DNA of 64,000 nt from Eledone cirrhosa (lineage: Eukaryota): NCBI GenBank assembly GCA_964016885.1, contig OZ024742.1, positions 331,886,001 through 331,950,000 of the forward strand. The letters run 5' to 3'. The notes beneath the pieces were generated by a model. The model made no database searches, was not told the DNA's origin, and saw nothing but the letters and a program-made list of their open reading frames with translations. The translations under genes and the position numbers were made by a program. Positions 1,649 to 33,243 of this stretch are shown here, piece by piece (position 1 is the stretch's first letter; each line of letters opens with the position of its first letter).

Positions 1649-2193
1649 CTTTCTTTAGACTTTTAGAATTACTCATCGATACACTTTATGTTTTCTTTAT
1701 TTTTCAAATTCATACCCCAGAAGGCATTACTTTGTTTCATGCATTTTGAGTCTTTAAAGTACCTATTAATTATTTTAATCGATAAAATAAACTGTTCCGT
1801 TAAATCCAATCTTACCATTAGAGGGCAGAGAATTTGGGTTATTCATTGATATTAGTTAGCAGAAAATCATTATTTCATTATTAGTTAATGAGTTTCAGTA
1901 AATAAATATCATTCCCTATATAAGAACTTCTATATTTCTGCTAGAAATCATCATCTGAAACAGCAGTGTATATATATATATATATGTGTGTGTGTATTCA
2001 CTGAAGAGCAGATCGATTATGGATATCTATTCCGCGAAGAGCAGATCAATATGTAGCGATATACGGTATGTTTATGAATAAACATTCTGAAAGCGTTCAA
2101 CTATAAATATAGAAACTGATGACATAGCACCATCTAGCGGATTTTAGCAAAAGCAAAGGGTGGGTATGTATATATATGTGTAGTTATATATAT

Positions 2194-4821: not shown

Positions 4822-6943
4822 TTATGGAGGATAAGTATCTGAAAGTGTGTTAAGTTTATATGAGCTGGAAAGCAGGGGTGATTTCATGTGTGGGCAACTG
4901 GTGAAAATTTCTGTCTTTGTGTTTAGGCAGGTCTTTGGTGATTTAAGATTTTGCAAGATCCAATATTTTTCATTTATGCAGAGCGTGCATTTTCTTGTTC
5001 CTCTTGCATATTCTTTAGATTGGTTCAACATTGACCAATCTCATTTATATTGGATACCTTGGTCTTTCAAAACCCATATTCTGCTAGCCAGAGCTGTTGT
5101 AAATCTTTTTTCTGGATGTCGAAATGATGCGACATGTGAGTAATAACGCGTTTTGAATTTGTCTTGCGTCATACCCACATATCGTTCACTGGTGGCTGGA
5201 TCGTTGTTGCTGATGGTTGTCACTTTAGCCGCATATACAATGGCTTTGGTGTTGCATTTACCTTGTAATGGGCATTCACTTTTGATTCTACAGAAGCAAT
5301 TTTGATGTTCTCTAGCTGATTTTTTGTTGATGATATAGGATTTAATAGGGGGACCGCAGGAGTAGCTAATTTTGACACAGTTTCTATTAAAGATCCTATA
5401 GTATCTATGTGTTCTAGGGAAATGTTTATCTAGGATTTCTAGGAATTTTTTGCCTACGTTAGTTTTAACTGCTAGAGAGTAGGGGGGGGGGGGGTGAACC
5501 AGATTATTTTTCTTTTTCTGTTTTTATGTTTAATAGAGTTAGTATAGTTGGGTATGTATTTAATCGGTTCGCTAAAACCGCTATTTTGGAGGGCTTTATT
5601 ATAGTAGGGGATGCCTTATTAAAAATAGCTTCTGAGGAAGAGAGGGTGGAGATCCTACGGCTAATATTAGGGATAAGGTTTTTAAAAACTATAGGAGGAT
5701 GGCAAGAGCCTTTATTTATATATTTTAAGTTTTCATTAGGTTTATGGTATGTTTTATAAGAAGCAGTAGGCAAATCTATGTTTATATCTAGGAAATCTAC
5801 ATTGGAAAGGTTAGTGTCAATAGTAATTTTAAGATTAAAACTAGCGAAGGTTTTTATTAAGTCTTTCCTTAATCTATCTAAGTTATGGCCTATGGTGGTA
5901 TGGGAAAGTATTAGACCATCGTCGCGATAAAGCCCCAAAATATGGTTAGTAATTTTTTCTTTAAGTGTGTGTAGGAGGAATAGGCCGACAAACATCAGCA
6001 CTGTCATAAGAGCCCATTGAGACATCGAATGGGCTCTCTGGGTTAGATATTTTTACCCAAGTGTCATTATCAGTAAAGAGTAGAGTGTTTCTAGCGTGCA
6101 AGATGAAATGCACTTCAATATCGGAGATATTAGTAAACCTTCTAGCGAAATTTAAGGCTTTCGCTAAAAGGGTCTGAGTGATAAATGGGTAGAAATCTAC
6201 AATGTCAAATTGGGTGAAACTAGAACTATTTTTGTTTTTAATATTATTAAACCAATGTTTTACGGAAGAGCTATTCATACATTGGTGTAAGTTAGACTTA
6301 CTTCTAATGTGTGTATTTATATTATTTAAACATTTTTTGCTGGCAAGACCAATATCAGTCTTAGCAGGGTTGATTAATCTACAACTAGGACGATTAATAA
6401 AGTCGGGTTTGTGATCTTTAAGGGTGATATAACCATTATGTTTAGCAAGTTTTTCTGTCCTATTATCTATTTTTAAAGAAACAGCTAATTCTTTAGCTTC
6501 CTTATTTATATTATGATACCTGTTTATATTAGCTATTTGGTATTTAGAGGTGATATTATCTATTAATAGTTGGTCGTGTAAATTATTGTTAACTTCATAT
6601 AGGTTTTTAGTTTTATCGGAGATGAACTTATTATTAGAAGATTTGAATGTTGAAATATCATTAGATAGTTTAAATTGAAAAGGGTTAGAGTACTTACGAA
6701 AATTGATATTGTTGATAAGGTTAACTAGGTCAAGTTCAAAAGCGGTCATATCTTTTACTCTTTGCTTATGAGTTTTGATGTCAAAATATTCCGTAGAATC
6801 CGTGTTAAAGTGTCCATCGAGAATCAAAGCTTTCCATCTCATTCTTTTAACAACCTTCTCTACTTTGTCTATCAGTATTTTCGTGTAGAGAGTGATGGTG
6901 TTGGGATATTATTTACAGAGTAATCCAAAGGGTATCTATCCAT
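4822..6943 (-). pseudogene. PLE-A polyprotein (RT + GIY-YIG endonuclease), frameshifted
   Basis: MDRYPLDYSVNNIP..KRMRWKA; FDIVDFYP; FDVSMGSYD; GLYRDDGL; RYVGMTQDKFKTRYYSH..CTLCINEK..LNTKTE..CPH across ORFs 5961-6842, 5504-6025, 5041-5223, 4822-5031. Confidence 0.9.
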
Positions 6944-8653: not shown

Positions 8654-9425
8654 TTATGGAGGATAAGTATCTGAAAGTGTGTTAAGTTTATATGAGCTGG
8701 AAAGCAGGTGTGATTTCATGTGTGGGCAACTGGTGAACATTTCTGTCTTTGTGTTTAGGCAGGTCTTTGGTGATTTAAGATTTTGCAAGATCCAATATTT
8801 TTCATTTATGCAGAGCGTGCATTTTCTTGTTCCTCTTGCATATTCTTTAGATTGGTTCAAAATTGACCAATCTAATTTATATTGGATACCTTGGTCTTTC
8901 AAATCCCATATTCTGCTAGCCAGAGCTGTTGTAAATCTTTTTTCTGGATGTCGAAATGATGCGACATGTGAGTAATAACGCGTTTTGAATTTGTCTTGCG
9001 TCATACCCACATATCGTTCACTGGTGGCTGGATCGTTGTTGCTGATGGTTGTCACTTTAGCCGCATATACAATGGCTTTGGTGTTGCATTTACCTTGTAA
9101 TGGGCATTCACTTTTGATTCTACAGAAGCAATTTTGATGTTCTCTAGCTGATTTTTTGTTGATGATATAGGATTTAAAAGGGGGACCGCAGGAGTAGCTA
9201 ATTTTGACACAGTTTCTATTAAAGATCTTATAGTATCCATGTGTTCTAGGGAAATGTTTATCTAGGATTTCTAGGAATTTTTTGCCTACGTTAGTTTTAA
9301 CTGCTAGAGAGTAGGGGCGGGGGTGAACCAGATTATTTTTCTTTTTCTGTTTTTATGTTTAATAGAGTTAGTATAGTTGGGTATGTATTTAATCGGTTCG
9401 CTAAAACCGCTATTTTGGAAGGCTT
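8654..9425 (-). pseudogene. PLE-A linker and GIY-YIG domain (5'-truncated tandem copy)
   Basis: ORF 8654-9055 is nearly identical to 4822-5223 but lacks the internal stop. Confidence 0.85.
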
Positions 9426-9611
9426 TTGGGGCAGCCCTCATTTGATTCTAGCAAGGTCGCAGTAAATACCGAGCATGGGGAGGGATGAGGTGAATATATA
9501 AATATTGCGGTAAGAGATATCAACTGTGTATGTGGGGATCATGGGAGTGTAGATAATGACATGAGAAGTTCCCAGTGTCCCCGCATTGCCTGGAAATTTA
9601 GCTGAGAATAG

Positions 9612-9690
9612 ATTCCCTGATGACGTAAGGCTTCTCCATAGTTATTACGTAACTATATTTATCCCCTCACAGAAACTAATTAGTTGGAGT
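9612..9690 (+). ncRNA. Type I hammerhead with expanded stem II
   Basis: AUUCC-CUGAUGA-cGUAAGG..CCUCACa-GAAA-CUAAUUAG-UU^-GGAGU. Confidence 0.75.
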
Positions 9691-10136
9691 GAAATGTTAG
9701 TAAGTAAGTCAATTTTCATAACTTTCTTATTTACGTCTTTCATATAATTGTTCTGCACCCCCCTGCATAGAACCATAAAGTTACTAAAACAAAACACATA
9801 TATATTTGCTAGCATAGGTATGCATATGTATACATATGTCGGTAGATATATTAATTCTTTATAATTATCTCCAAATTATTTGTTGAGCAAAATTTGCCGA
9901 AATTACTACTGTGACTGATAGTAGTGGCTAGGCTCTGTCTTAATTGCACCCCCTCTCCTAGCTGATTAACCTCAGTGTCACGTGATTGATTCTTTTGAAT
10001 TTGCCACTTGACCAAGTAGGCATTGAATTTTTCAATGTCTTGGAATCTAGCCCCGCTCGCTTTTTTCCATCCACTGAATTATTTTTATATAAGTTCCCAG
10101 TGTCCACGCATTGCCTGGAAGCTTAGCTGAGAATAG

Positions 10137-10215
10137 ACTCCCTGATGACGTAAGGCTTCTCTATAATTATTACGTAACTATATTTATCCCCTTACAGAAA
10201 CTAATTAGTTGGAGT
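10137..10215 (+). ncRNA. Type I hammerhead with expanded stem II
   Basis: ACUCC-CUGAUGA-cGUAAGG..CCUUACa-GAAA-CUAAUUAG-UU^-GGAGU; 12-nt palindrome AACUAAUUAGUU. Confidence 0.82.
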
Positions 10216-10258
10216 GAAGTTTTAGTAAATCAATTTTCATAACTTTCTTATTTACGTC

Positions 10259-10310
<52 letters not shown>

Positions 10311-10319
<9 letters not shown>

Positions 10320-10575
10320 GATATTAAATAAATGTAAACTATATTTATAGAATCATATTTATTCTATTATATATATTTGAAGGGTACCAACACTTTTCTA
10401 CGGTCTCATCAGATAATATACAAAGTTTGTTTTATAAATATTGACATATCCAGGAAGGAGATCTTAACTGTTCAAGTTTTTCCCGGATATGTCAACATTT
10501 ATGAAACAAATAGGTATTTTATCTGATGAGAGTGTTACATAGTTTTGGTACCATTGAAATACATATAAATAGCAG
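10311..10575. mobile_element. Fold-back fragment with two decayed HHRs (family of 34987 and 45705)
   Basis: Starts attcaatgatattaaataaatg after (TA)n; tcatcagataa near 10406 and ttatctgatga near 10519 in inverted orientation. Confidence 0.55.
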
Positions 10576-19477: not shown

Positions 19478-19663
19478 ATATATATATGTATATATATATA
19501 TTGTTATACTTTGGGAGGGTCAAGTTGCCAATAAGAAACACACGCACCAGTTGCTTTCACTTCAATTTATTATATATTTATATATTTATAAATTTACAAA
19601 TCTACAAATCTATAAATTTCTGGTTGGTTGGTTGGTTCCACAACCAGATAGTTGTTTATATAT

Positions 19664-19708
19664 AGTCATAGTCCTTTCGTCACACACTCTGTGACCTCTT
19701 CAGTGACT
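19664..19708 (-). ncRNA. PLE-B minimal hammerhead
   Basis: AGUCA-CUGAAGA-g GUCACA gagug UGUGAC-GAAA-GgaC-UA^-UGACU. Confidence 0.75.
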
Positions 19709-19721
19709 GGGGATTCCTTTC

Positions 19722-19766
19722 AGTCACTGAAGAGGTCACAGAGTGTGTGACGAAAGGACTATGACT
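19722..19766 (+). ncRNA. PLE-B minimal hammerhead
   Basis: agtca ctgaaga g gtcaca gagtg tgtgac gaaa ggac ta tgact. Confidence 0.75.
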
Positions 19767-20018
19767 ATATATAAACAACTATCTGGTTGTGGAACCAACC
19801 AACCAACCAGAAATTTATAGATTTGTAGATTTGTAAATTTATAAATTTATAAATATATAATAAATTGAAGTGAAGCAACTGGTGCGTGTGTTTCTTATTG
19901 GCAACATGACCCTCCCAAAGTATAACAATATCGGTTTCAACACACGGTTTCAGATAAAGAATCTTGCTAAACAAATTCAGAAACGAAATATATATATATA
20001 TATATACATATATATATG

Positions 20019-20461: not shown

Positions 20462-23400
20462 TTAGGTAAGGCGGGTCTTCTCTATTACTGAGTACCGCCA
20501 AAGGTCTCGGTCCAGTGACATTGTCTTGGAGAGGTGTAAATGTGTGAGGTCAGAATTTATCAGCTCGTCCCAGGTTTTTCTGGGTCTGCCTACTCCATAG
20601 CTACCGTCTATCTTTATTGCCCTGCACTTTGTTATACAGCTGTCGTCTTCCATGCGCATCACGTGACCATACCAACGTAGCCTTCTCCCGAGTAAACAAC
20701 ATCTGATCCCTCTTATTTCTAATTTTTTCCTTAGTTCGCTTATGCTTTGCCGTTCACGTATGTTACTATTACACATCCAGCGGAGCATGCAAGCTTCGTT
20801 ATTCTCTAGTCTGCGTATATCCTCTGCACACAATGCCCAGGTCTCACTGCCATGCTACATTGTTGTTCGTATGCAGGCATCATACAACCTGCCTTTCATT
20901 CTTTGGGAGAACCCTTTAGCGGCTAACAGTGGTATAAGGTCTCGGAACTATTTCCAACCAGTTCTGACTCTAGCTACTGTACTTTCAGAGGACCCTCCCC
21001 CACTGCTGATTTTGTCGCCCAGGCAACGGAAGCTGTCCACTATTTCTATAGAACCCTCTTCGCAATTGAAAGAGCTAGTATTTTTTGGGGCACTTGCTGC
21101 TACTTATTGCACCAGAGCACCGGCCACATGTAACATCTATGTTCCTAGTTAGCTTACCTGTGACCCCACTACATATTTTATGCACCCATACTTTGCATTT
21201 GGGACATAAAATAGAGTTTCTACCTACGCCTTTCCTACACACTGAGCATGGCCATTTCCCGGAAGGGACCGGCGCCTTATTTTCTTTCCTACAAACTAGA
21301 ACTTTAGTCTTAGCCAGGTTAATTTTAAGGCCTTTTGATTCTAGGCCGTGCTTCCATGTTTGGAATTTCTTCTCTAGCACGGCCATTGATTCAGCTATGA
21401 GCGTTAGATCATCTGCGTATAGGAGTTCCCATGGGCAGCCGGTCTTGAACTCCTCTGTTATAGCCTGAAGGGCAATAATAAATAGTAGGGGGCTAAGAAC
21501 GGAGCCCTGATGGACACCAACTTTTACGCTAATCTCTTCACTATATTCGTTGTTAATTCTAACCTTGCTGACTGTTTCTTTATACATGGCTTGTATAGCT
21601 CTGACAAGCCATTCGTCAAAACCTAGTTTCCTAAGAGCCCACAAAAAAATGGAACGGGGGACTCTGTCGAAGGCTTTCTCCAAGTCAACAAAAGCTAAGT
21701 ATAGGGGTTTACTTTTAGCTAGGTACTTCTCCTGTAGTTGTCTGTGGTACTTTTGCGTGACACAAACCCGAACTGCATTTCATCTAGATCAAAGAGCGTC
21801 TGTGGTACTTTTGCCTGACACAAACCCGAACTGCATTTCATCTAGATCAATTTTCTCTCTAATTAGTTGCGCTATTACTTTTTCCGTGACCTTCATGACA
21901 TGGTCGATTAATTTAATGCCTCTATAGTTACACCTATCTAGGGCATCTCCTTTACCCTTGTAACAGTTAATGATGATGCTGCTACGCCAGTCCTTCGGAA
22001 CAACCCCATTCTATATGACTTGGTTTACTATCCGGGAGACCATGGTGTGTCCAACCGTTCCAGAGGCTTTCAGCAAAATCAGCAACTATTTCCGAAGGCC
22101 CAGCCGCCTTACCCGCCTTCATATCTTTGATTGCCTTACTTATTATACTACCTTCGACTAACACTGCTGGTCCCTCTATTGGGTCGATGTGGGGGAGACT
22201 GTCTTTCTCCCATTTATTCTCCTCATTTAGAAGCCGTTCGTAGTGACTCTTCCAAGCTACCTTCTTATCAGCGTCAGTGATGGCAAGTACGCCTTCATCA
22301 TTAAGTACACACTTCTCCCCGACAATATCACGGTTTTCCTTGACACATTGCCTAGCAATCCTGAACACCTCACGTTTTTGGTCCTCGCGTTGTACAACAT
22401 GCTTGAACTTTCTTTCCTCTGCTTACCTTCTTGCGAAGTACACTTGTCTCCTAGCTTCCCTTCTGGCCACTTGATAGTCTTCTCTACTTCCTCCATCCCG
22501 CCATACTTTCGAAGCCTGCTTTTTGGCCTTAATTGTCTCCTCCACCTTACTGTTCCACCACCATGTTACTCTCCTCCTAACTACAGGCCTGCTCCAGCCA
22601 CAGACTTCGTCTACCGCCGTCAGCAGGTTTGCTTTCAGGAATTCCCACTGTTCCTCTATATTATACGACTCTAATTGCTCTTCCTTACTGTCGAAAGCAT
22701 CAAGTAATATGCTTTGAAATTTATTTCTGGCTGTGGGGTCCTTTAGCTTCCATAATTTTCTCCTGAGGATAGTCCTCTTCTGCTGTCTAATACGTCTCGT
22801 CCTGACTATGAGGTCGCTAATTATCAGTCTATGTTGGGAGGTGCATTCTTCATGGGGGAGGGATTCAGTGTTAACAACAGACACTCTGTCACGTCTTCTG
22901 GTAAGGATATAATCTACCTGGCTTGTGTGTTCCCCCGATCTATAGGTGATCAAGTGATTGTCTCGTTTTTTGAAGTTAGTGTTACAGATAGTTAGGTTAT
23001 TTGCGTCACAGAATTCCAGGATTCTGGAGCCTTCCTCATTTCTAGTACCGAGCCCATAACCTCCATGGATTCCGTCATAGCCGTCACATTGTTGTCCAAC
23101 GTGACCGTTTAGGTCGCCTGCAATAATTATATAGTCACTGTCTGTTATTTGGGCGGTAGCGAGCATCAGTGTCTCATAGAATCTGTCTTTTATAGCGCCG
23201 GGCAGTCCGGATTGGGGTGCGTACGCAGATATTACTGTCACCGTAGTTGTATTGAGGACAAGTCTTATTTTCATTATTCTGTCGTTCAGGGCAGTGGATT
23301 GGCAGTATCGGTAGAGGGTCGGACGCCATGCTTTCCAGCATAGTTACGTCCCTTTATGATCTGAGTTCGAATCCCGCCGAGGTTGACTTTGCCTTTCATC

Positions 23401-24263: not shown

Positions 24264-24696
24264 TTAATTGTAAGTTGTGATGTTGCTGTTCCACTCAAAT
24301 TTTCTATTTAATTTTGGTTGTAATTCTTTTATGTTTATTGCCTCTGTAATTTGTCTAAACATTGCGTCTTTTCTGTGTGTAGATTCTATTTTTATTTCTA
24401 TGTTCTCTAATTTACCCTTGTGTTCTATTTTAGCATGTTGGTAGAGTACAGATGATTCTTTATTATCTTGAAGGTCTCGCCAGTGTTCATTTATCCGTTC
24501 CCCTACACTACGAGCTGTCTCACCTATGTACACTATATTTTTGTCTCTACATTGTCCTTCAGTACATCTTATGCTATACACTACATTTCTAATTTTACAG
24601 TTAATATGGCGGCTTATTTTACAGGTTATACATGTCTTATCTATACATGAGGGTCTTTGAAAAGGGTATTTCTTGCTAATAAGTGTTTTTACGGAG
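24264..24696 (-). pseudogene. Inverted copy of the PLE-B GIY-YIG domain
   Basis: YSIRC..YIGETARSVGERINEH..RQITEAINI..LNRKFEW, nearly identical to the C-terminal part of ORF 27303-27932. Confidence 0.85.
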
Positions 24697-27600
24697 TTAT
24701 AACAAGAAACTAAAGTGGCTTAAGCAGATAAAGCTAAATCAGGATACTATAGAGAATACCAATAGATATCCCGACAAAATTGACGGTATAAATATAGCCG
24801 ACACCTCATTAACAGAGGAGTTCAACAACAACAAAAACACAAATATATACGGTAACACAAGATTAGATGACGATGAGATGTCTGTGTTATGTTTACCCCC
24901 AAAATTTGCGACATTCAAGAAGGTAAATATGATTAATTTTCTGTCAGAAATAGAAAAATAATTTACAAAACTACGCTGGAGCCTCAAAAACAAAAACAAA
25001 AACAAAAGCAACAATATACGCACACACATATACAATACACATCCCAACAACAACAGACACACAGACACAAACAACAATAACAACAACACACACACCAACA
25101 ACAACAACAATAACAACATACCCAGAAACAACAACAACAGACACGCAGACACAAACAACAATAACAACACACACAGCAACAATAACACACACGGAGACAA
25201 CAACAACACACATCAACAACAACAACACACACACATTCAATGCCTCTCACCACCAACACAATCTTAACAAACACACAGACACAGAAAACAAGTAATGACA
25301 GTAGCACAGAAATCCCAGAAATAAGGGAAAGTAATAGGATTAAAAAGAGAAGGGGGACTAAGGACAAAGAGAATAACCAAGACGAACACACAGACACACA
25401 AAATAGGGTAGATAACAACAATGAGCCAGTGGAAAGAGACAGGAGTAATTGTGAGAGACATAGAAACAACCATGAGGCTGTTGGTGGAAATAGAAATAGA
25501 AACAAGACAACTAACAATAACAATAGCACTAGTACACATAAAGCAGCAGCCTGGAACTCTACGTTTTATAATCCCTCCGATAAATCATTCGACCTGCGAC
25601 GAGTCCACGCCACGACTTTACCATTTAACAAACGCACGCAATTGCCGTCGCACGTCGTTGAACAAACAGAAGCACAATTTAGTATAGCTAGATCCGAACT
25701 TAGAAATATTATAGAACAGTATAGCAAGAAGCATAATTGAATGGAGGCCCAGCAACTGGGAGAAAAATCTGCAAATGGCTTGCGTAAGCTCATGCAGCGC
25801 TCACGTAATGGAGAGATAGCATGCTTTCCAACAGACAAGTATGGCAGAATGTCGGTTGACAGCCTGCCAAACTACATCCAGGCAATGCAACCCCACATCA
25901 CTAACACAAGAGAGGTAACACTACAGGAGCATGAGGATAGAGAAAAAGCCCTCAATGCCCATATGGTGATGTGGACGAATATAATGCAGCCCAACAAAAG
26001 GACTGCCAACAACTTCCAGGCCTGGAACAATGACGTGCCGGCGTTGTATGGGCTTCGAAAAGACCATAAAATGGGCTGTGACCCTGTCGCGGGACCACCA
26101 ACACGGCCAGTCTGTGGAGCTAACATTGCTAGTAACTACAGACTGTCCTACTTCCTCTCCCTGATCATACGCCCCATCATTGAAATGTCCCCAGATGTAT
26201 GTGACAGCACGGAGGACCTCCTCAGCAGAATCGGCGTGAGTAACCGATCTGGGGACCTAACAAACTCCATAATAGGCAGTATGGATGTTGTGTCTGTATC
26301 CATCTATTGACGTGGATTTTGCTGTGGAGAAATGCGTAGAAATGATCAGTGAGAGCAAGGTTGAGTTCCGTGGGATTGATAACAGTGAGCTGGGACTCCT
26401 ACTTAAGCTTACCTATAGTAATAATTACCTAGACACATATGACCTTAGCAACCTGTGCCTACAAGACCAGCAAGAGGCAGACCACCTACCATTACCTCAA
26501 TGGCCAAGAAAACCCACACAGATAGATGGAACGGGTGGACCAGAGCCATACGGACACCCGAAAACCACGATGAACTGAAGAAAATGATTGCACATGCGGT
26601 AGGGGCCAGCATAAAACTAACCCTTAAGGAACATATGTTCAAATTTAATGGAAAAACATATGCCCAAGAGGAAGGAGCAGCCATTGGTGTTAGCATTGCA
26701 GGCGACATAGCTAACTTATTCATGGTATGGTGGGACAGTAGACTTAAACTTAAACTTAAAGAACAATTAGAAGACCCCTTAAACCTGATAATGTACTCCC
26801 GCTACGTACATGATATAAATATCGTAGTTAAGACACCCCCACTAGAGAACTGTCAGGAACTAGAGAAAAAAACAATGGAAAGCATCCAGCAAATAGCAAA
26901 CTCCATCCACCAGAGCATTAGAGTTACTATAGACTACCCAAGTAAACACCCAAACCATCGATTACCTGTACTAGACACAGAGCTCTGGTTAGATACCATT
27001 AACAACAAAAAACAAATCCTCCATTCCCATTATGCCAAACCCATGACTTCCAGACATCTGATACACCGAAACTCGGCCGTTTCGGACCATACCAAAATCA
27101 ACATACTGATTGCGGATTTGGTACGGGTGATGAGAAATGTGTCCCGCATGTGCAACCCCGAAGAACTAGAGAGACACATACAACACTTCATCCACCGTAT
27201 GCAGTTCTCAGGCTACAATCAGAGAGATAAAATCAGAGTGTATAGAGGAGCCAGAACCAAATGGGAAAAAATGGTAAATAATGACATAAATGGGACTGCC
27301 CCTTGTATAGGAGAAAATTTTGGAATAGAATAGAAAGAACTAGGAACAAGGCTAATAGAATAAACTCATGGTATGATAGCAATAAATACCAGACTGTAAT
27401 TTTCATCGATACAACCCCTAGAGTTGAATTAGCCTATAAATTTAGAAGGGCCCTAAATAAAAATAAACTCAATATTAAGATAGTAGAAAGACCAGGTACC
27501 TCCGTAAAAACACTTATTAGCAAGACATACTCTTTTCAAAGACCCTCATGTATAGATAAGAAATGTATAACCTGTAAAATAAGCCCCCATATTAACTGTA

Positions 27601-27932
27601 AAACTAGAAATGTAGTGTATAGCATAAGATGTACTGAAGGACAATGTAGAGACAAAAATATAGTGTACATAGGCGAGACAGCTCGTAGTGTAGGGGAACG
27701 GATAAATGAACACTGGCGAGACCTTCAAGTTAATAAAGAATCATCTGTACTCTACCACCATGCTAAAATAGAACACAAGGGTAAATTAGAGAACATAGAA
27801 ATAAAAATAGAATCTACACACAGAAAAGACGCAATGTTTAGACAAATTACAGAGGCAATAAACATAAAAGAATTACAACCAAAATTAAATAGAAAATATG
27901 AGTGGAACAGCAACATCACAGCTTACAATTAA
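24697..27932 (+). pseudogene. PLE-B polyprotein (RT + GIY-YIG), 5'-truncated, with stops and frameshifts
   Basis: LPPKFA; EIEK*FTKLRW; PTDKYGR; GPPTRPVCGA; SMDV..LYPSID; GAAIGVSIAG; YSRYVHDI; LPVLD; VVYSIRC..YIGET. Confidence 0.9.
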
Positions 27933-28132: not shown

Positions 28133-28177
28133 TATCTCTTAAGAGGTCACATAGTGTTTGACGAAAGAACTATGACT
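28133..28177 (+). ncRNA. PLE-B hammerhead, decayed core
   Basis: cttaaga g gtcac..tgac gaaa gaac ta tgact. Confidence 0.5.
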
Positions 28178-28389: not shown

Positions 28390-28421
<32 letters not shown>

Positions 28422-28426
28422 GTATA

Positions 28427-28566
<140 letters not shown>

Positions 28567-28630
28567 TAAAAGACGTACAATAAGAAAATTTAAAATAAAA
28601 TTAAAAATTAACTTACTTACTACAATTTTC

Positions 28631-28712
28631 ACTCCAACTAATTAGTTTCTGTAATGGGATAAAGATAGTTACGTAATATAACCATCGAGAATTCATTACG
28701 TCATCAGGGAGT
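28631..28712 (-). ncRNA. Type I hammerhead with expanded stem II
   Basis: ACUCC-CUGAUGA-cGUAAUG..CAUUACa-GAAA-CUAAUUAG-UU^-GGAGU. Confidence 0.82.
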
Positions 28713-29175
28713 CTATTCTCAGCTAAGTCTCCAGGCAATGCGCGGACACTGGGGTCTCATACAAAAATAATAATAATTCGGTGGATGGAATAGCTAGCGG
28801 GGACTGGATTCCATGCACTGAAAAAGTTCGCTGTCTCTTGTCAAATGGCAGATTCTAAAGAATCAATCACGTGACACTGAGGCTAGTCGGAAGGAGTGGG
28901 TTTGTAAGATGACAAAAGCCTACTACCACACCAATGAATTAGTAGTGGATTTGGCAGGCTTGCTCAACAAATAAATAATTTGGAGATAGATATAGAGAAT
29001 TTAGTATATCTACCAACATATGCGTACAGATGCACACTAATGCTAGCAAATACATAAGTTATGTCATAGCACCTAGGTGGTTCAATGCAGGAGGATGCAG
29101 AACAATAAAATGAAAGACGTAAAATAAGAAAATAAAAAAAAACAATTAAAATTTAACTTACTTACTAAAATGTTC

Positions 29176-29257
29176 ACTCCAACTAATTAGTTTCTGTAAT
29201 GGGATAAAGGTAGTTACGTAAAATAACCATCGAGAATTCATTACGTCATCAGGGAGT
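29176..29257 (-). ncRNA. Type I hammerhead with expanded stem II
   Basis: Same fold as 28631-28712; predicted cleavage sites 545 nt apart. Confidence 0.82.
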
Positions 29258-29508
29258 CTATTCTCAGCTAAGTCTCCAGGCAATGCGCGGACACTGGGGA
29301 CTCATATAAAAATAATAATATTTCGGTGGATGGAACAGCTAGCGGGGACTGGATTCCATGCACTGAAAAAGTTCGCTGTCTCTGGTCAAATGGCAGATTC
29401 TAAAGAATCAATCACGTGACACTGAGGCTAGTCGGAAGGAGTGGGTTGGTAAGATGACAAAAGCCTACTACCACACCAATGAATTAGTAGTGGATTTGGC
29501 AGTAGTGG

Positions 29509-30462
29509 ATTTCATCAGTAATCTTCCAACCTTCATTGGTATTTCATCGCTTTAAAGAGCATATTTGATGGTCTTTATTCTCTCACGTCCACGATTTCAC
29601 AGAACTTATATTCATCGATTTCTGTGACTTGACTCCTTCATCCTCACTTTTCGTTGCATTACCTTCTTTGATTGTTTACAGTCTCGCTCGTTCCCCTTAT
29701 TTACGTGTCCCAGCGACTTTCTTTAGCCGTTGCTCACACCAACCGGAGGTATATGGTCTTTAAAGCGATGAAATACCAATGAAGGTTGGAAGATCACTGA
29801 TGAAAGACTAAATTTATTCATATGTAACACATTTGCAACCTCGCAGCACGTCTTGTTTTCATATTCACATATATATATTTTCCTCCGATGTGACCCGTCT
29901 TTTTCTTTCTTACTGGTTCCTCTTCCTCTGTATATCTCACTTCCCTTTCCCCCTCTAACAGTCACTCTCTCTGTTAGCCACTTCTTCACCCTTCACTCAC
30001 TCACTCTCTGCTACTCCCTCTGCTACTTCGTCCGGTTTGACCTGTGCGAGATTCTTTCTTCACGCACACTTTGACCAGGTTGATTGTTCCTTTTTTTCTC
30101 TCTTGTCTACTATTTCACAGAACTTATGTTCACCGAATTCAGGGACTAGACTCCTTCTTCCTCCCGCTTGACCTGTGCGAAATTCTTTCCTTGCTCACAT
30201 TTCGACTAGGTTTGATGGTCTTTATTCTCTCTCGTCAAAGATTTCACAGAACTTATATTCATCGATTTCTGGGACTTGACTCCTTCTTCCTCACTTATCG
30301 TTGCATTACCATCTTTGATTGTTTACAGTCTCGCTCGTTCCCCTTATTTACGTGACCCACGACTTTCTTTAGCCGTAGCTCGCACCAACCGGAGGTATAT
30401 AGTCTTTAAAGCGATGAAATACCAATGAAGGTTGGAAGATCACAGATGAAGGACTAAATGTA

Positions 30463-30466
<4 letters not shown>
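29509..30466. repeat. Non-coding element with direct (29565-29822 / 30211-30466) and inverted (29509-29555 / ~29755-29803) repeats
   Basis: Visible sequence identity; ends at (TA)n. Confidence 0.6.
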
Positions 30467-30508
<42 letters not shown>

Positions 30509-30633
30509 TATGAATGAAAAGTATAAAAATTATTGTAGCAAGAAGCCAACAGTATTCCATAATATATAAGTGACTATAGCGTCAAAATGCGTTTAATTAA
30601 GCATACAGTGTATTGCAAAATTCACTATATACA

Positions 30634-30716
<83 letters not shown>

Positions 30717-30719
<3 letters not shown>

Positions 30720-31340
30720 ATTAACCTCTCATTCTCTACCACCCCTAATATTAGTTCTCATTTAGCTAGCACTAATAATAGGAAAATTAGGGATGGATTC
30801 TCCTCTCTACATACTACTAGTCTGAACAGATCTGACAATGCTTTACCACCAGAACAGTCCTTATCTAATAGAAATCCTACGTGTAATACATCACCACTCG
30901 AGCAAACCAATAACACCCGGAAGTGCAATTGTAGAGTGAGTGCTAACTGCCCTTTAAACGGTAACTGCCTTTCTAAGAACATTGTCTACGCTTGCGAAGT
31001 TATAACTAATTCCTCTAATAGAACTTATATAGGATCTACTTCAAACACTTTTAAGACTAGGTTTAACTCTCATATCTCTAACTTCAAACATGTTAAGTTT
31101 CAGAATTCTACTTCTTTAGCACAATATATCTGGGATCTTAAGGGAGCTTATATATCATATAGCCTTAACTGGCGTTTAGTAGCACGCTCTAACCACCTTT
31201 CTACACATACTAAGTTTTGTAATCTCTGTATCCTTGAGACACACTCTATAATTTTCTCTAGCGTATCCTTACTTAATAGAAAGTCTGAGATATTCTCTTC
31301 TTGCCCCCACGCTATTTCTAATTCTTACTTTTATTATTAA
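30717..31340 (+). pseudogene. PLE-C GIY-YIG endonuclease domain
   Basis: ORF 30936-31340 plus upstream in-frame linker; homologous to the PLE-A endonuclease. Confidence 0.85.
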
Positions 31341-33203: not shown

Positions 33204-33243
33204 GCCCTGATGAGTCCTTAATAGGACGAAACATTGTCGGCTC
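33204..33243 (+). ncRNA. Canonical minimal type I hammerhead (PLE-C 3' end)
   Basis: GCC-CUGAUGA-GUCCU uaau AGGAC-GAAA-C auu G-UC^-GGC. Confidence 0.9.

What the first reader, a model, noticed from the sequence alone, without database searches (positions are those of the whole stretch)
28631..29257. Expanded stem II hammerhead with compensatory change and a conserved decoy (possible switch)
Seen: the stem II base is GUAAGG/CCUUAC at 10137 but GUAAUG/CAUUAC here, a compensatory G-C to U-A change. The ~50-nt stem II domain holds an apical hairpin (AUAGUUA/UAACUAU; GAUGGUUA/UAACUAUC). Its loop carries UUACG in all four copies, complementary to the CGUAA right after the core. Inference: two mutually exclusive folds (active versus kinetically trapped) could delay or regulate cleavage. 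The monomer here is 545 nt.
Basis: partly seen in the sequence, partly recalled or inferred. Interest (0 to 1): 0.8.

Follow-up and report, generated by a model that had tools for sequence, protein, structure and literature searches.

The report
Pseudoknotted hammerhead in Penelope-type retrozyme
This is one copy of a roughly 9,000-copy jumping repeat whose predicted self-cutting RNA (a hammerhead ribozyme) has an unusually long second arm that likely docks onto the first arm by a short base-paired contact and likely cuts only as a pair, while the proposed "decoy switch" is not conserved across the family.

Summary
The decoy switch is not supported. Genome-wide there are about 8,900 pattern matches. 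3,064 keep UUACG but have CGCAA, which breaks the pairing; at most 16 restore it. Other subfamilies have a UUCG loop or no loop. UUACG is the opened tip of a hairpin whose 3' arm is CGUAAC. The decoy is only a predicted ~7-nt cotranscriptional transient in the window's subfamilies. What is kept instead is a GAGAA/UUCUC helix between the stem I flank and the stem II internal loop (150 of 150 cells paired; one clade-wide G-C to A-U switch), likely the pseudoknot contact, and a palindromic stem III, implying dimer-dependent cleavage. The family is a non-coding Penelope-type retrozyme: (AT)n targets, inverted 5' truncations, two fixed 3' ends (one of each in 29 of 29 inverted insertions). 5' ends are about 3-5-fold enriched at the predicted cut. 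Cleavage, RNA and the autonomous partner are not shown. The scan's earlier notes held nothing on it.

The parts
28563..29502 (-). Whole insertion: about 1.7 tandem units of the retrozyme family, 5'-truncated at 29502, 3' end running into (AT)n
28636..29180 (-). One unit, cut site to cut site, 545 nt, 36.9% GC, no ORF of 150 aa or more
28715..28720 (-). GAGAAU, 5' flank of stem I; predicted pseudoknot 5' strand
28708..28712 (-). Stem I 5' strand ACUCC
28700..28707 (-). Core CUGAUGA plus one extra C between A9 and G10.1
28694..28699 (-). Stem II 5' strand GUAAUG
28687..28692 (-). AUUCUC, 5' side of the stem II internal loop; predicted pseudoknot 3' strand
28664..28686 (-). Apical hairpin GAUGGUUA...UAACUAUC; conserved as a structure, variable in sequence and length; contains UUACG at 28672-28676
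28651..28663 (-). 3' side of the internal loop (UUUAUCC) and stem II 3' strand CAUUAC
28636..28650 (-). Extra A, core GAAA, palindromic stem III ACUAAUUAGU and U17; predicted cut after GUU at 28636
28631..28635 (-). Stem I 3' strand GGAGU, the predicted 5' end of the cleaved RNA
29176..29265 (-). Second (upstream) hammerhead of the tandem, same subfamily
28390..28568 (.). (AT)n target microsatellite at the 3' end
9566..10267 (+). Sister insertion (GUAAGG subfamily, 525-nt unit) with hammerheads at 9604-9690 and 10129-10215, ending in (AT)n at 10263-10314

Best explanation
This is a Penelope-type type I hammerhead motif inside a non-coding tandem repeat of 511-572-nt units with about 9,000 copies, which is likely mobilised by a Penelope-like element (PLE); its long stem II domain likely serves to present UUCUC for a pseudoknot with GAGAA beside stem I, and it is predicted to cut mainly as a dimer. 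Steps: (1) shown: core, three stems, covarying stem II and apical hairpin. (2) Inferred from conservation and one compensatory switch: GAGAA/UUCUC forms the stem I-stem II contact that holds the active shape. (3) Predicted: a single copy misfolds, with core CUGAU pairing with stem III AUUAG; two copies form a 10-bp palindromic stem III and cut each other, so cleavage needs a tandem transcript or a partner. (4) Inferred from insertion ends: a PLE reverse transcriptase nicks (AT)n, starts at two fixed internal sites about 55-75 and 170-200 nt past the cut, one per target strand, and usually copies through an uncut or re-ligated ribozyme; a minority of templates end at the cut. UUACG is a by-product of drift at the hairpin tip and has no conserved role.
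For: Family size: 6,911 + 1,965 + 39 pattern matches, controls 0. Pseudoknot: the five core pairs are paired in 150 of 150 cells of 30 representatives, with G-C 25 / A-U 5 at one pair; slid controls for the whole structure are 29-50% paired. A helix of 5 bp or more is possible in 211 of 237 copies with an intact upstream flank; upstream/interior states are G/C 179, A/U 19, A/C 5, G/U 2. The A/U state marks one clade on a tree built from sequence outside the ribozyme (17 rows, support 100/99). Monomer misfold has P>0.5 in 160 of 237; stem III duplex -9.0 versus hairpin +1.5 kcal/mol. 3' ends: 106 short and 78 long-tail of 268 copies; 29 of 29 loci with two AT-ended inverted arms have one of each. 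5' junctions at the cut: 41 of 44 matches versus 12-13 of 17 at a control site 14 nt away (binomial p about 2e-4). Literature: PLE hammerheads have a nucleotide between 9 and 10.1, a 6-8-bp helix II and a palindromic helix III (PMC4209133, passages); pseudoknot contacts are common and were tested by mutation (PMC3088659, passages and section 8); PLE reverse transcription starts internally at two sites that define the tail (PMC11167929).
Against: No cleavage or RNA was shown. The pseudoknot rests on one evolutionary switch, so the 2x2 table is not independent counts; the sixth pair is formed in only 10 of 30. GAGAA has a rival partner, the U-run 3' of stem I, which the nested minimum-energy folds prefer in several copies. 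The misfold is weaker in GGAAUG and GGGAUG subfamilies (median P 0.1 and 0.0). Core and stem III were imposed by my search patterns, so their invariance is not measured. No autonomous partner was linked in 177 loci. The cut-site excess has a single control position, several junctions are ambiguous by 1-3 nt of microhomology, and fold-backs could come from snap-back at the palindrome followed by deletion (no palindrome-centred fold-back was seen in held loci). The extra A before G12 may slow the core.
Confidence: 0.7

Rival explanations
1. One reading: UUACG is a family-wide conserved decoy that pairs with CGUAA and switches the ribozyme between an active and a trapped fold.
For: Perfect complementarity in the window (8 bp in 28707). 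Predicted occupancy 0.7-0.99 for the first 0-6 nt after the loop is made. On alignment A1 the decoy columns beat shuffles (1 of 500), but only 70.8% of cells pair and the columns are out of register between loop types.
Against: 3,064 broken versus at most 16 compensated. UUCG loops, non-pairing loops and deleted hairpins occur in amplified subfamilies. Pairing of the post-core C inside the domain has P>0.1 in 10 of 237 full-length copies. The CGCAA group nests within the UUACG group, so complementarity was lost on the way to the largest counted group. In sister subfamilies CG-UAAC is the paired 3' arm of the hairpin.
Confidence: 0.04
2. The decoy is an accidental, subfamily-limited kinetic trap. 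In GUAAUG and some GUAAGG copies it delays folding by seconds to minutes and lowers cleavage, with no selection to keep it.
For: 14 of 14 GUAAUG and 11 of 14 GUAAGG copies tested exceed P 0.5 at some prefix; exit barriers 9.5-11.5 kcal/mol, 12.8 in the full context. The full-length decoy fold lies only 1.4-3.1 kcal/mol above the pseudoknot-free native fold in three window copies and is the minimum-energy fold in the decayed 9617 copy.
Against: Prefix equilibria and findpath barriers are upper-bound estimates, not kinetics; the native energy omits the pseudoknot; the decoy is out-competed 8 nt later (P 0.02).
Confidence: 0.2
3. GAGAA is the real switch: it alternates between the stem II internal loop (active contact) and the U-run 3' of stem I (relaxed extension of stem I), so the contact forms early in transcription and may be lost later or in the circle.
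For: Both pairings are available in all major subfamilies. GAGAA/UUCUC is the dominant helix in nascent prefixes (P 0.85-0.97 in GUAAUG, GCAAUG and GGAAUG examples, but 0.02 or less in the two GUAAGG window copies), and the U-run pairing appears in full-length nested folds.
Against: The U-run pairing is G-U rich and shows no compensatory change of its own; nested folding cannot score the pseudoknot, so the competition is not computed fairly.
Confidence: 0.15
4. TTACGTAA is kept at the DNA level as a bZIP (D-box-like) transcription-factor site in the repeat's promoter.
For: ATTACGTAAC fits the recalled consensus RTTAYGTAAY and survives in the 3,064 CGCAA copies.
Against: Absent from the UUCG-loop subfamilies and toggling among TTGCG, TTATG, TTGTG, CTCCG in close relatives; simple inheritance explains it. 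The consensus is recalled, not from a call.
Confidence: 0.05

Closest known systems
PLE-type type I hammerheads (Cervera and De la Pena 2014, PMC4209133; passages seen)
   Same: [quoted passage not shown]
   Different: Here helix II is capped by an internal loop plus a 20-25-nt hairpin (domain mostly 46-50 nt), there is a second extra nucleotide before G12, and a base-paired stem I-stem II contact is evident; PLE motifs were described as lacking tertiary contacts (PMC7761336, passages).
Metazoan non-LTR retrozymes (PMC7229834, passages; bioRxiv 10.64898/2026.07.22.740005, parts 1-3 of 5)
   Same: Non-coding, low-GC tandem units each with a type I hammerhead, thousands of copies, PLEs present in the same genome.
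   Different: Units of 511-572 nt (150-450 in PMC7229834; 51-972 in the preprint), mostly 1-4 units dispersed, PLE-style inversions and tails, non-canonical hammerhead missed by Rfam; circular RNA not shown.
[quoted passage not shown]
   Same: A short stem, an internal loop whose 5' side base-pairs with the other arm, and an extra ~20-nt cap hairpin; 5-bp and 6-bp stems.
   Different: Mirror image: there the extension is on helix I and pairs with loop II in a type III fold; here it is on helix II and pairs with the open stem I flank in a type I fold.
Poseidon PLE of Anolis, PAc (PMC11167929; passages and section 3 part 2)
   Same: Internal reverse-transcription starts downstream of the hammerhead, two starts defining a tail, AT-rich targets, mostly uncut template.
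   Different: Here the element is non-coding, the tail is about 120 nt rather than 30-40, each inverted arm uses a different start, the short end overlaps the target in sequence (CAUAU with (AT)n), and some 5' ends fall at the cut, where that paper found no RNA-seq reads ending.

Membership tests
Type I hammerhead ribozyme | Core CUGANGA, GAAA and NUH around three stems, stem I open | tested here: met
   CUGAUGA, GAAA, GUU; stems ACUCC/GGAGU, 6-bp II, 3-bp III; one extra nucleotide on each side of the stem II base
Type I hammerhead ribozyme | Covarying stems | tested here: met
   stem II 100% paired over 4 aligned pairs with four pair types at one position; apical hairpin 4 of 4 pairs with double changes
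Type I hammerhead ribozyme | Match to Rfam hammerhead models | tested here: not met
   No hit at these copies at E<=1 in the window or at gathering score in 6 loci; the long stem II domain exceeds the models, so this lowers only 'canonical'
Type I hammerhead ribozyme | Self-cleavage at the NUH site | not testable with these tools
   Only an indirect genomic trace: excess of 5' junctions at the site
Type I hammerhead ribozyme | Stem I-stem II tertiary contact | tested here: inconclusive
   GAGAA/UUCUC conserved with one clade-wide compensatory change; not probed
PLE-type hammerhead | Nucleotide between 9 and 10.1, G10.1-C11.1, long helix II, short helix I, palindromic helix III | tested here: met
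   features as in PMC4209133
Non-LTR retrozyme | Non-coding low-GC tandem units, each with a type I hammerhead | tested here: met
Non-LTR retrozyme | Expressed as linear and circular RNA | not testable with these tools
   No RNA holder was listed
Non-autonomous Penelope-like element | (TA)n targets, inverted 5'-truncated arms, optional tail | tested here: met
   features as in PMC8557442 (passages)
Non-autonomous Penelope-like element | Homology to the pLTR of an autonomous PLE | tested here: inconclusive
   No consistent link to a PLE ORF in 177 loci; four junctions read were nested insertions or inversions; the whole genome could not be searched for it

The most novel reading that the evidence does not exclude
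A new hammerhead architecture: a type I, PLE-type ribozyme that regained a base-paired tertiary contact by growing an internal-loop-plus-hairpin module on stem II, the mirror image of the HDV-like toad and termite ribozymes. It is locked off as a monomer and released as a dimer. The thousands of insertions record the PLE mechanism in vivo: both strands of an (AT)n target are primed at two different internal starts of the RNA, and cleavage sets the stop point of a minority of cDNAs, which are then joined head to head.
Probability: 0.4. Interest if true: 0.68.

Novelty: new variant of a known kind. Interest (0 to 1): 0.48.

Why it matters
What hammerheads do in Penelope-like elements is open: PMC8557442 calls it unclear and PMC11167929 found cleavage dispensable in vitro. 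This family gives natural compensatory variants for a simple kinetic test of a new stem I-stem II contact. Its thousands of insertion ends can measure how often the template was cut and how the two start sites are used. It also shows a class of abundant animal hammerheads that Rfam did not detect here. The decoy switch that gave the finding its 0.8 is not there as a conserved feature.

Tried and rejected
Rfam found no hammerhead at these copies. Pfam named none of 7 neighbouring ORFs (two sub-threshold hits); their PLE label rests on recalled motifs. A pattern for sister families with another stem III gave 13 unrelated matches, controls 2. A pattern with both sides of stem II pair 3 changed gave 1 match. 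No autonomous partner was found. Sequencing runs: no RNA holder listed; contigs of X1 and X4 were laid but cannot show ends or expression, and X4 is a second organism at low depth. The pseudoknot table was mis-parsed and replaced. Within-array versus between-locus identity did not separate circular from multimeric templates. The unit folds better than shuffles as a circle (z -3.4, 40 shuffles), which does not show a circle exists. Pairing of the 3' side of the internal loop with GAGUGAA was considered and dropped: no compensatory change. The tree (108 of 180 usable rows, at most 3 per label) has one long-branch group of 14 and a basal group of 4 that I attribute to partial homology and did not use. 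Lunse et al. 2017 was not held; it is known to me only from a reference list and recall. Scan look-ups gave one unrelated note and two blanks. Not in print, as far as searched: searches listed no paper on this architecture or on such a decoy; supplements of PMC4209133, PMC3088659, PMC8557442 and the preprint were not seen and may show similar motifs (PMC8557442 mentions eight Naiad half-cores 35-50 nt apart).

Full report
What is there. The window comes from a 3.0-Gb, AT-rich genome, G000. At 28563-29502 on the minus strand lie about 1.7 tandem units of a repeat, 95% alike, and a sister insertion lies at 9566-10267 on the plus strand, 78-83% alike to the first. Each unit holds a type I hammerhead motif: stem I ACUCC/GGAGU, core CUGAUGA, one extra C, a 6-bp stem II base, an internal loop, an apical hairpin, one extra A, GAAA, a palindromic stem III and a GUU triplet. 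The unit is 545 nt, 36.9% GC and non-coding. Rfam does not see these motifs.

The family. Exact patterns anchored on the core and stem III give 6,911 matches with G-not-U at the start of stem II, 1,965 with GU, and 39 with another base before GAAA; backwards controls give 0. These are matches, not exact copy numbers: strand counts are uneven, and further subfamilies with a CUGACGA core are outside those counts. Unit lengths are mostly 511-572 nt. The stem II base takes the forms GUAAUG/CAUUAC, GUAAGG/CCUUAC, GCAAUG/CAUUGC, GAAAGG/CCUUUC, GGAAUG/CAUUCC and others. On 30 hand-picked representatives one pair occurs as A-U 12, U-A 9, G-C 6, C-G 3, and all four counted apical pairs show double changes. 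The long stem II domain is therefore real and selected as a structure.

The decoy fails. 3,064 matches combine CGCAA with UUACG, a central mismatch, and at most 16 carry the compensating UUGCG, two of them only because the word sits in the hairpin arm. On a tree built from sequence upstream of the ribozyme the CGCAA group nests inside the window's own group, so complementarity was lost. Among the first 100 listed GU-type copies I counted by eye 41 UUACG, 34 wobble-compatible (UUGCG, UUAUG, UUGUG) and 25 non-pairing loops. That puts intact CGUAA plus UUACG at roughly 800 of 8,900. Other subfamilies have a UUCG loop, a shortened hairpin, or none. In sister subfamilies CGUAAC is the paired 3' arm under a 3-nt loop, so UUACG is that loop plus the first two bases of an arm whose partners drifted away.

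What remains of it. Folding of growing transcripts puts the decoy helix at P 0.7-0.99 for about 7 nt in the 28707 copy and 0.02 once the hairpin arm is complete; in a CGCAA copy it is 0 throughout. 14 of 14 GUAAUG, 11 of 14 GUAAGG and 3 of 14 GCAAUG copies tested show some transient mispairing above 0.5, and the exit barrier is 9.5-11.5 kcal/mol. At full length the post-core C pairs inside the domain with P>0.1 in 10 of 237 copies. An accidental local delay is possible; a conserved switch is not.

The likely role of the long stem II. UUCUC on the 5' side of the internal loop is complementary to GAGAA just upstream of stem I. A helix of 5 bp or more is possible in 211 of 237 copies with an intact flank. 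The five core pairs are paired in 150 of 150 cells, with G-C in 25 and A-U in 5 at the third pair, while a sixth pair forms in only 10 of 30. A search for copies with a changed upstream strand returned mostly copies with UUUUC inside; the states are G/C 179, A/U 19, A/C 5, G/U 2. This is one clade (17 rows, 100/99), hence one event. Base-paired contacts between stems I and II are predicted for about 40% of hammerheads and were confirmed by mutation in one (PMC3088659, passages). Toad and termite HDV-like ribozymes use the mirror-image module on helix I (PMC7936874, passages). The contact is inferred, not probed; the U-run 3' of stem I is a weaker rival partner.

Monomer off, dimer on. In 160 of 237 copies the single-copy fold pairs core CUGAU with AUUAG of stem III at P>0.5; the 3-bp stem III hairpin costs +1.5 kcal/mol while the palindromic duplex gains -9.0. 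This matches the known double-hammerhead arrangement of PLE and repeat hammerheads (PMC4209133; PMC3088659 figure S8 legend). It is a prediction, and it is weaker in the GGAAUG and GGGAUG subfamilies.

How it moves. Insertions end in (AT)n at two fixed places past the predicted cut: under 110 nt in 106 of 268 copies (mostly 52-77) and 150-230 nt in 78; 67 continue into the next unit, 12 are other and 5 too near a locus end. All 29 loci with two AT-ended inverted arms have one short and one long end. Inverted 5' truncations are common. These are PLE hallmarks (PMC8557442), and the two ends fit the two internal starts shown in vitro for a Poseidon element (PMC11167929). Because copying starts downstream of the cut and usually runs through it, most templates were uncut or re-ligated. 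A search for 5' ends at the cut gave 44 matches, of which 41 are true junctions in 37 insertions, about 10 of them near-perfect head-to-head fold-backs. The control site gave 17 matches with 12-13 junctions. That is about 3-fold raw and 4-5-fold after a rough correction for the copies each pattern can see. With one control site this is a hint of cleavage in vivo, in a small minority of events. No autonomous partner was tied to the family, though PLE-like ORFs lie in the window (label from recalled motifs, Pfam silent).

Verdict. A new variant of a known kind: a PLE-type hammerhead with an added internal-loop and hairpin module and a probable pseudoknot, in a large non-LTR retrozyme family (kind described in PMC7229834, and tied to PLEs in bioRxiv 10.64898/2026.07.22.740005). 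My searches listed no report of this architecture, but Lunse et al. 2017 and several supplements were not seen. Interest 0.48.

Noticed in passing
window 19659-19771, 24057(-), 48394(+), remnant near 28150: A second hammerhead-like family (CUGAAGA core, GGUCAC stem II, stem III AGGACU that could dimerise through tandem G-A pairs); 19703 and 19727 form a head-to-head inverted pair that Rfam mis-scores as a microRNA.
   Followed up: no
window 33205-33240 (+): Canonical type I hammerhead, Rfam RF00163 26.4 bits (below gathering), about 40 nt before an (AT)n run.
   Followed up: no
window 5041-6908(-), 8654-9352(-), 24264-24719(-), 25186-27932(+), 30597-31340(+): Broken ORFs with RT-like and GIY-YIG-like motifs, read as PLEs from recalled motifs; the finding's insertion sits in the (AT)n just 3' of the 25186-27932 element.
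   Followed up: partly
window 21075-23343 (-): Broken LINE-like ORF pieces (endonuclease and RT motifs by recall), also seen beside several loci.
   Followed up: no
L027:481-1554 and L111 (minus, 950 and 1501): Tandem arrays whose adjacent units belong to different subfamilies, which suggests template switching or joining of unlike RNAs.
   Followed up: partly
L232, L239, L115, L165, L167, L191: An extra G right at the predicted cut/ligation site (GGGAGUG) in several copies and subfamilies.
   Followed up: no
L011 about 1770-1830 (-): A neighbouring PLE-like element carries its own hammerhead with another palindromic stem III and also ends in (AT)n; a candidate type of mobiliser.
   Followed up: no
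window 28657-28663 (-): The 3' side of the internal loop (UUUAUCC, UUUAUUC, UUUACUC) is conserved without an evident partner; it may pack on the pseudoknot.
   Followed up: partly
window 29510-30472 and core-like CUGAUGA at 10412, 10523, 29518, 29797, 35084, 45766, 47298: Other repeats with CUGAUGA followed by A-rich sequence, some as inverted pairs; possibly minimal PLE hammerheads.
   Followed up: no
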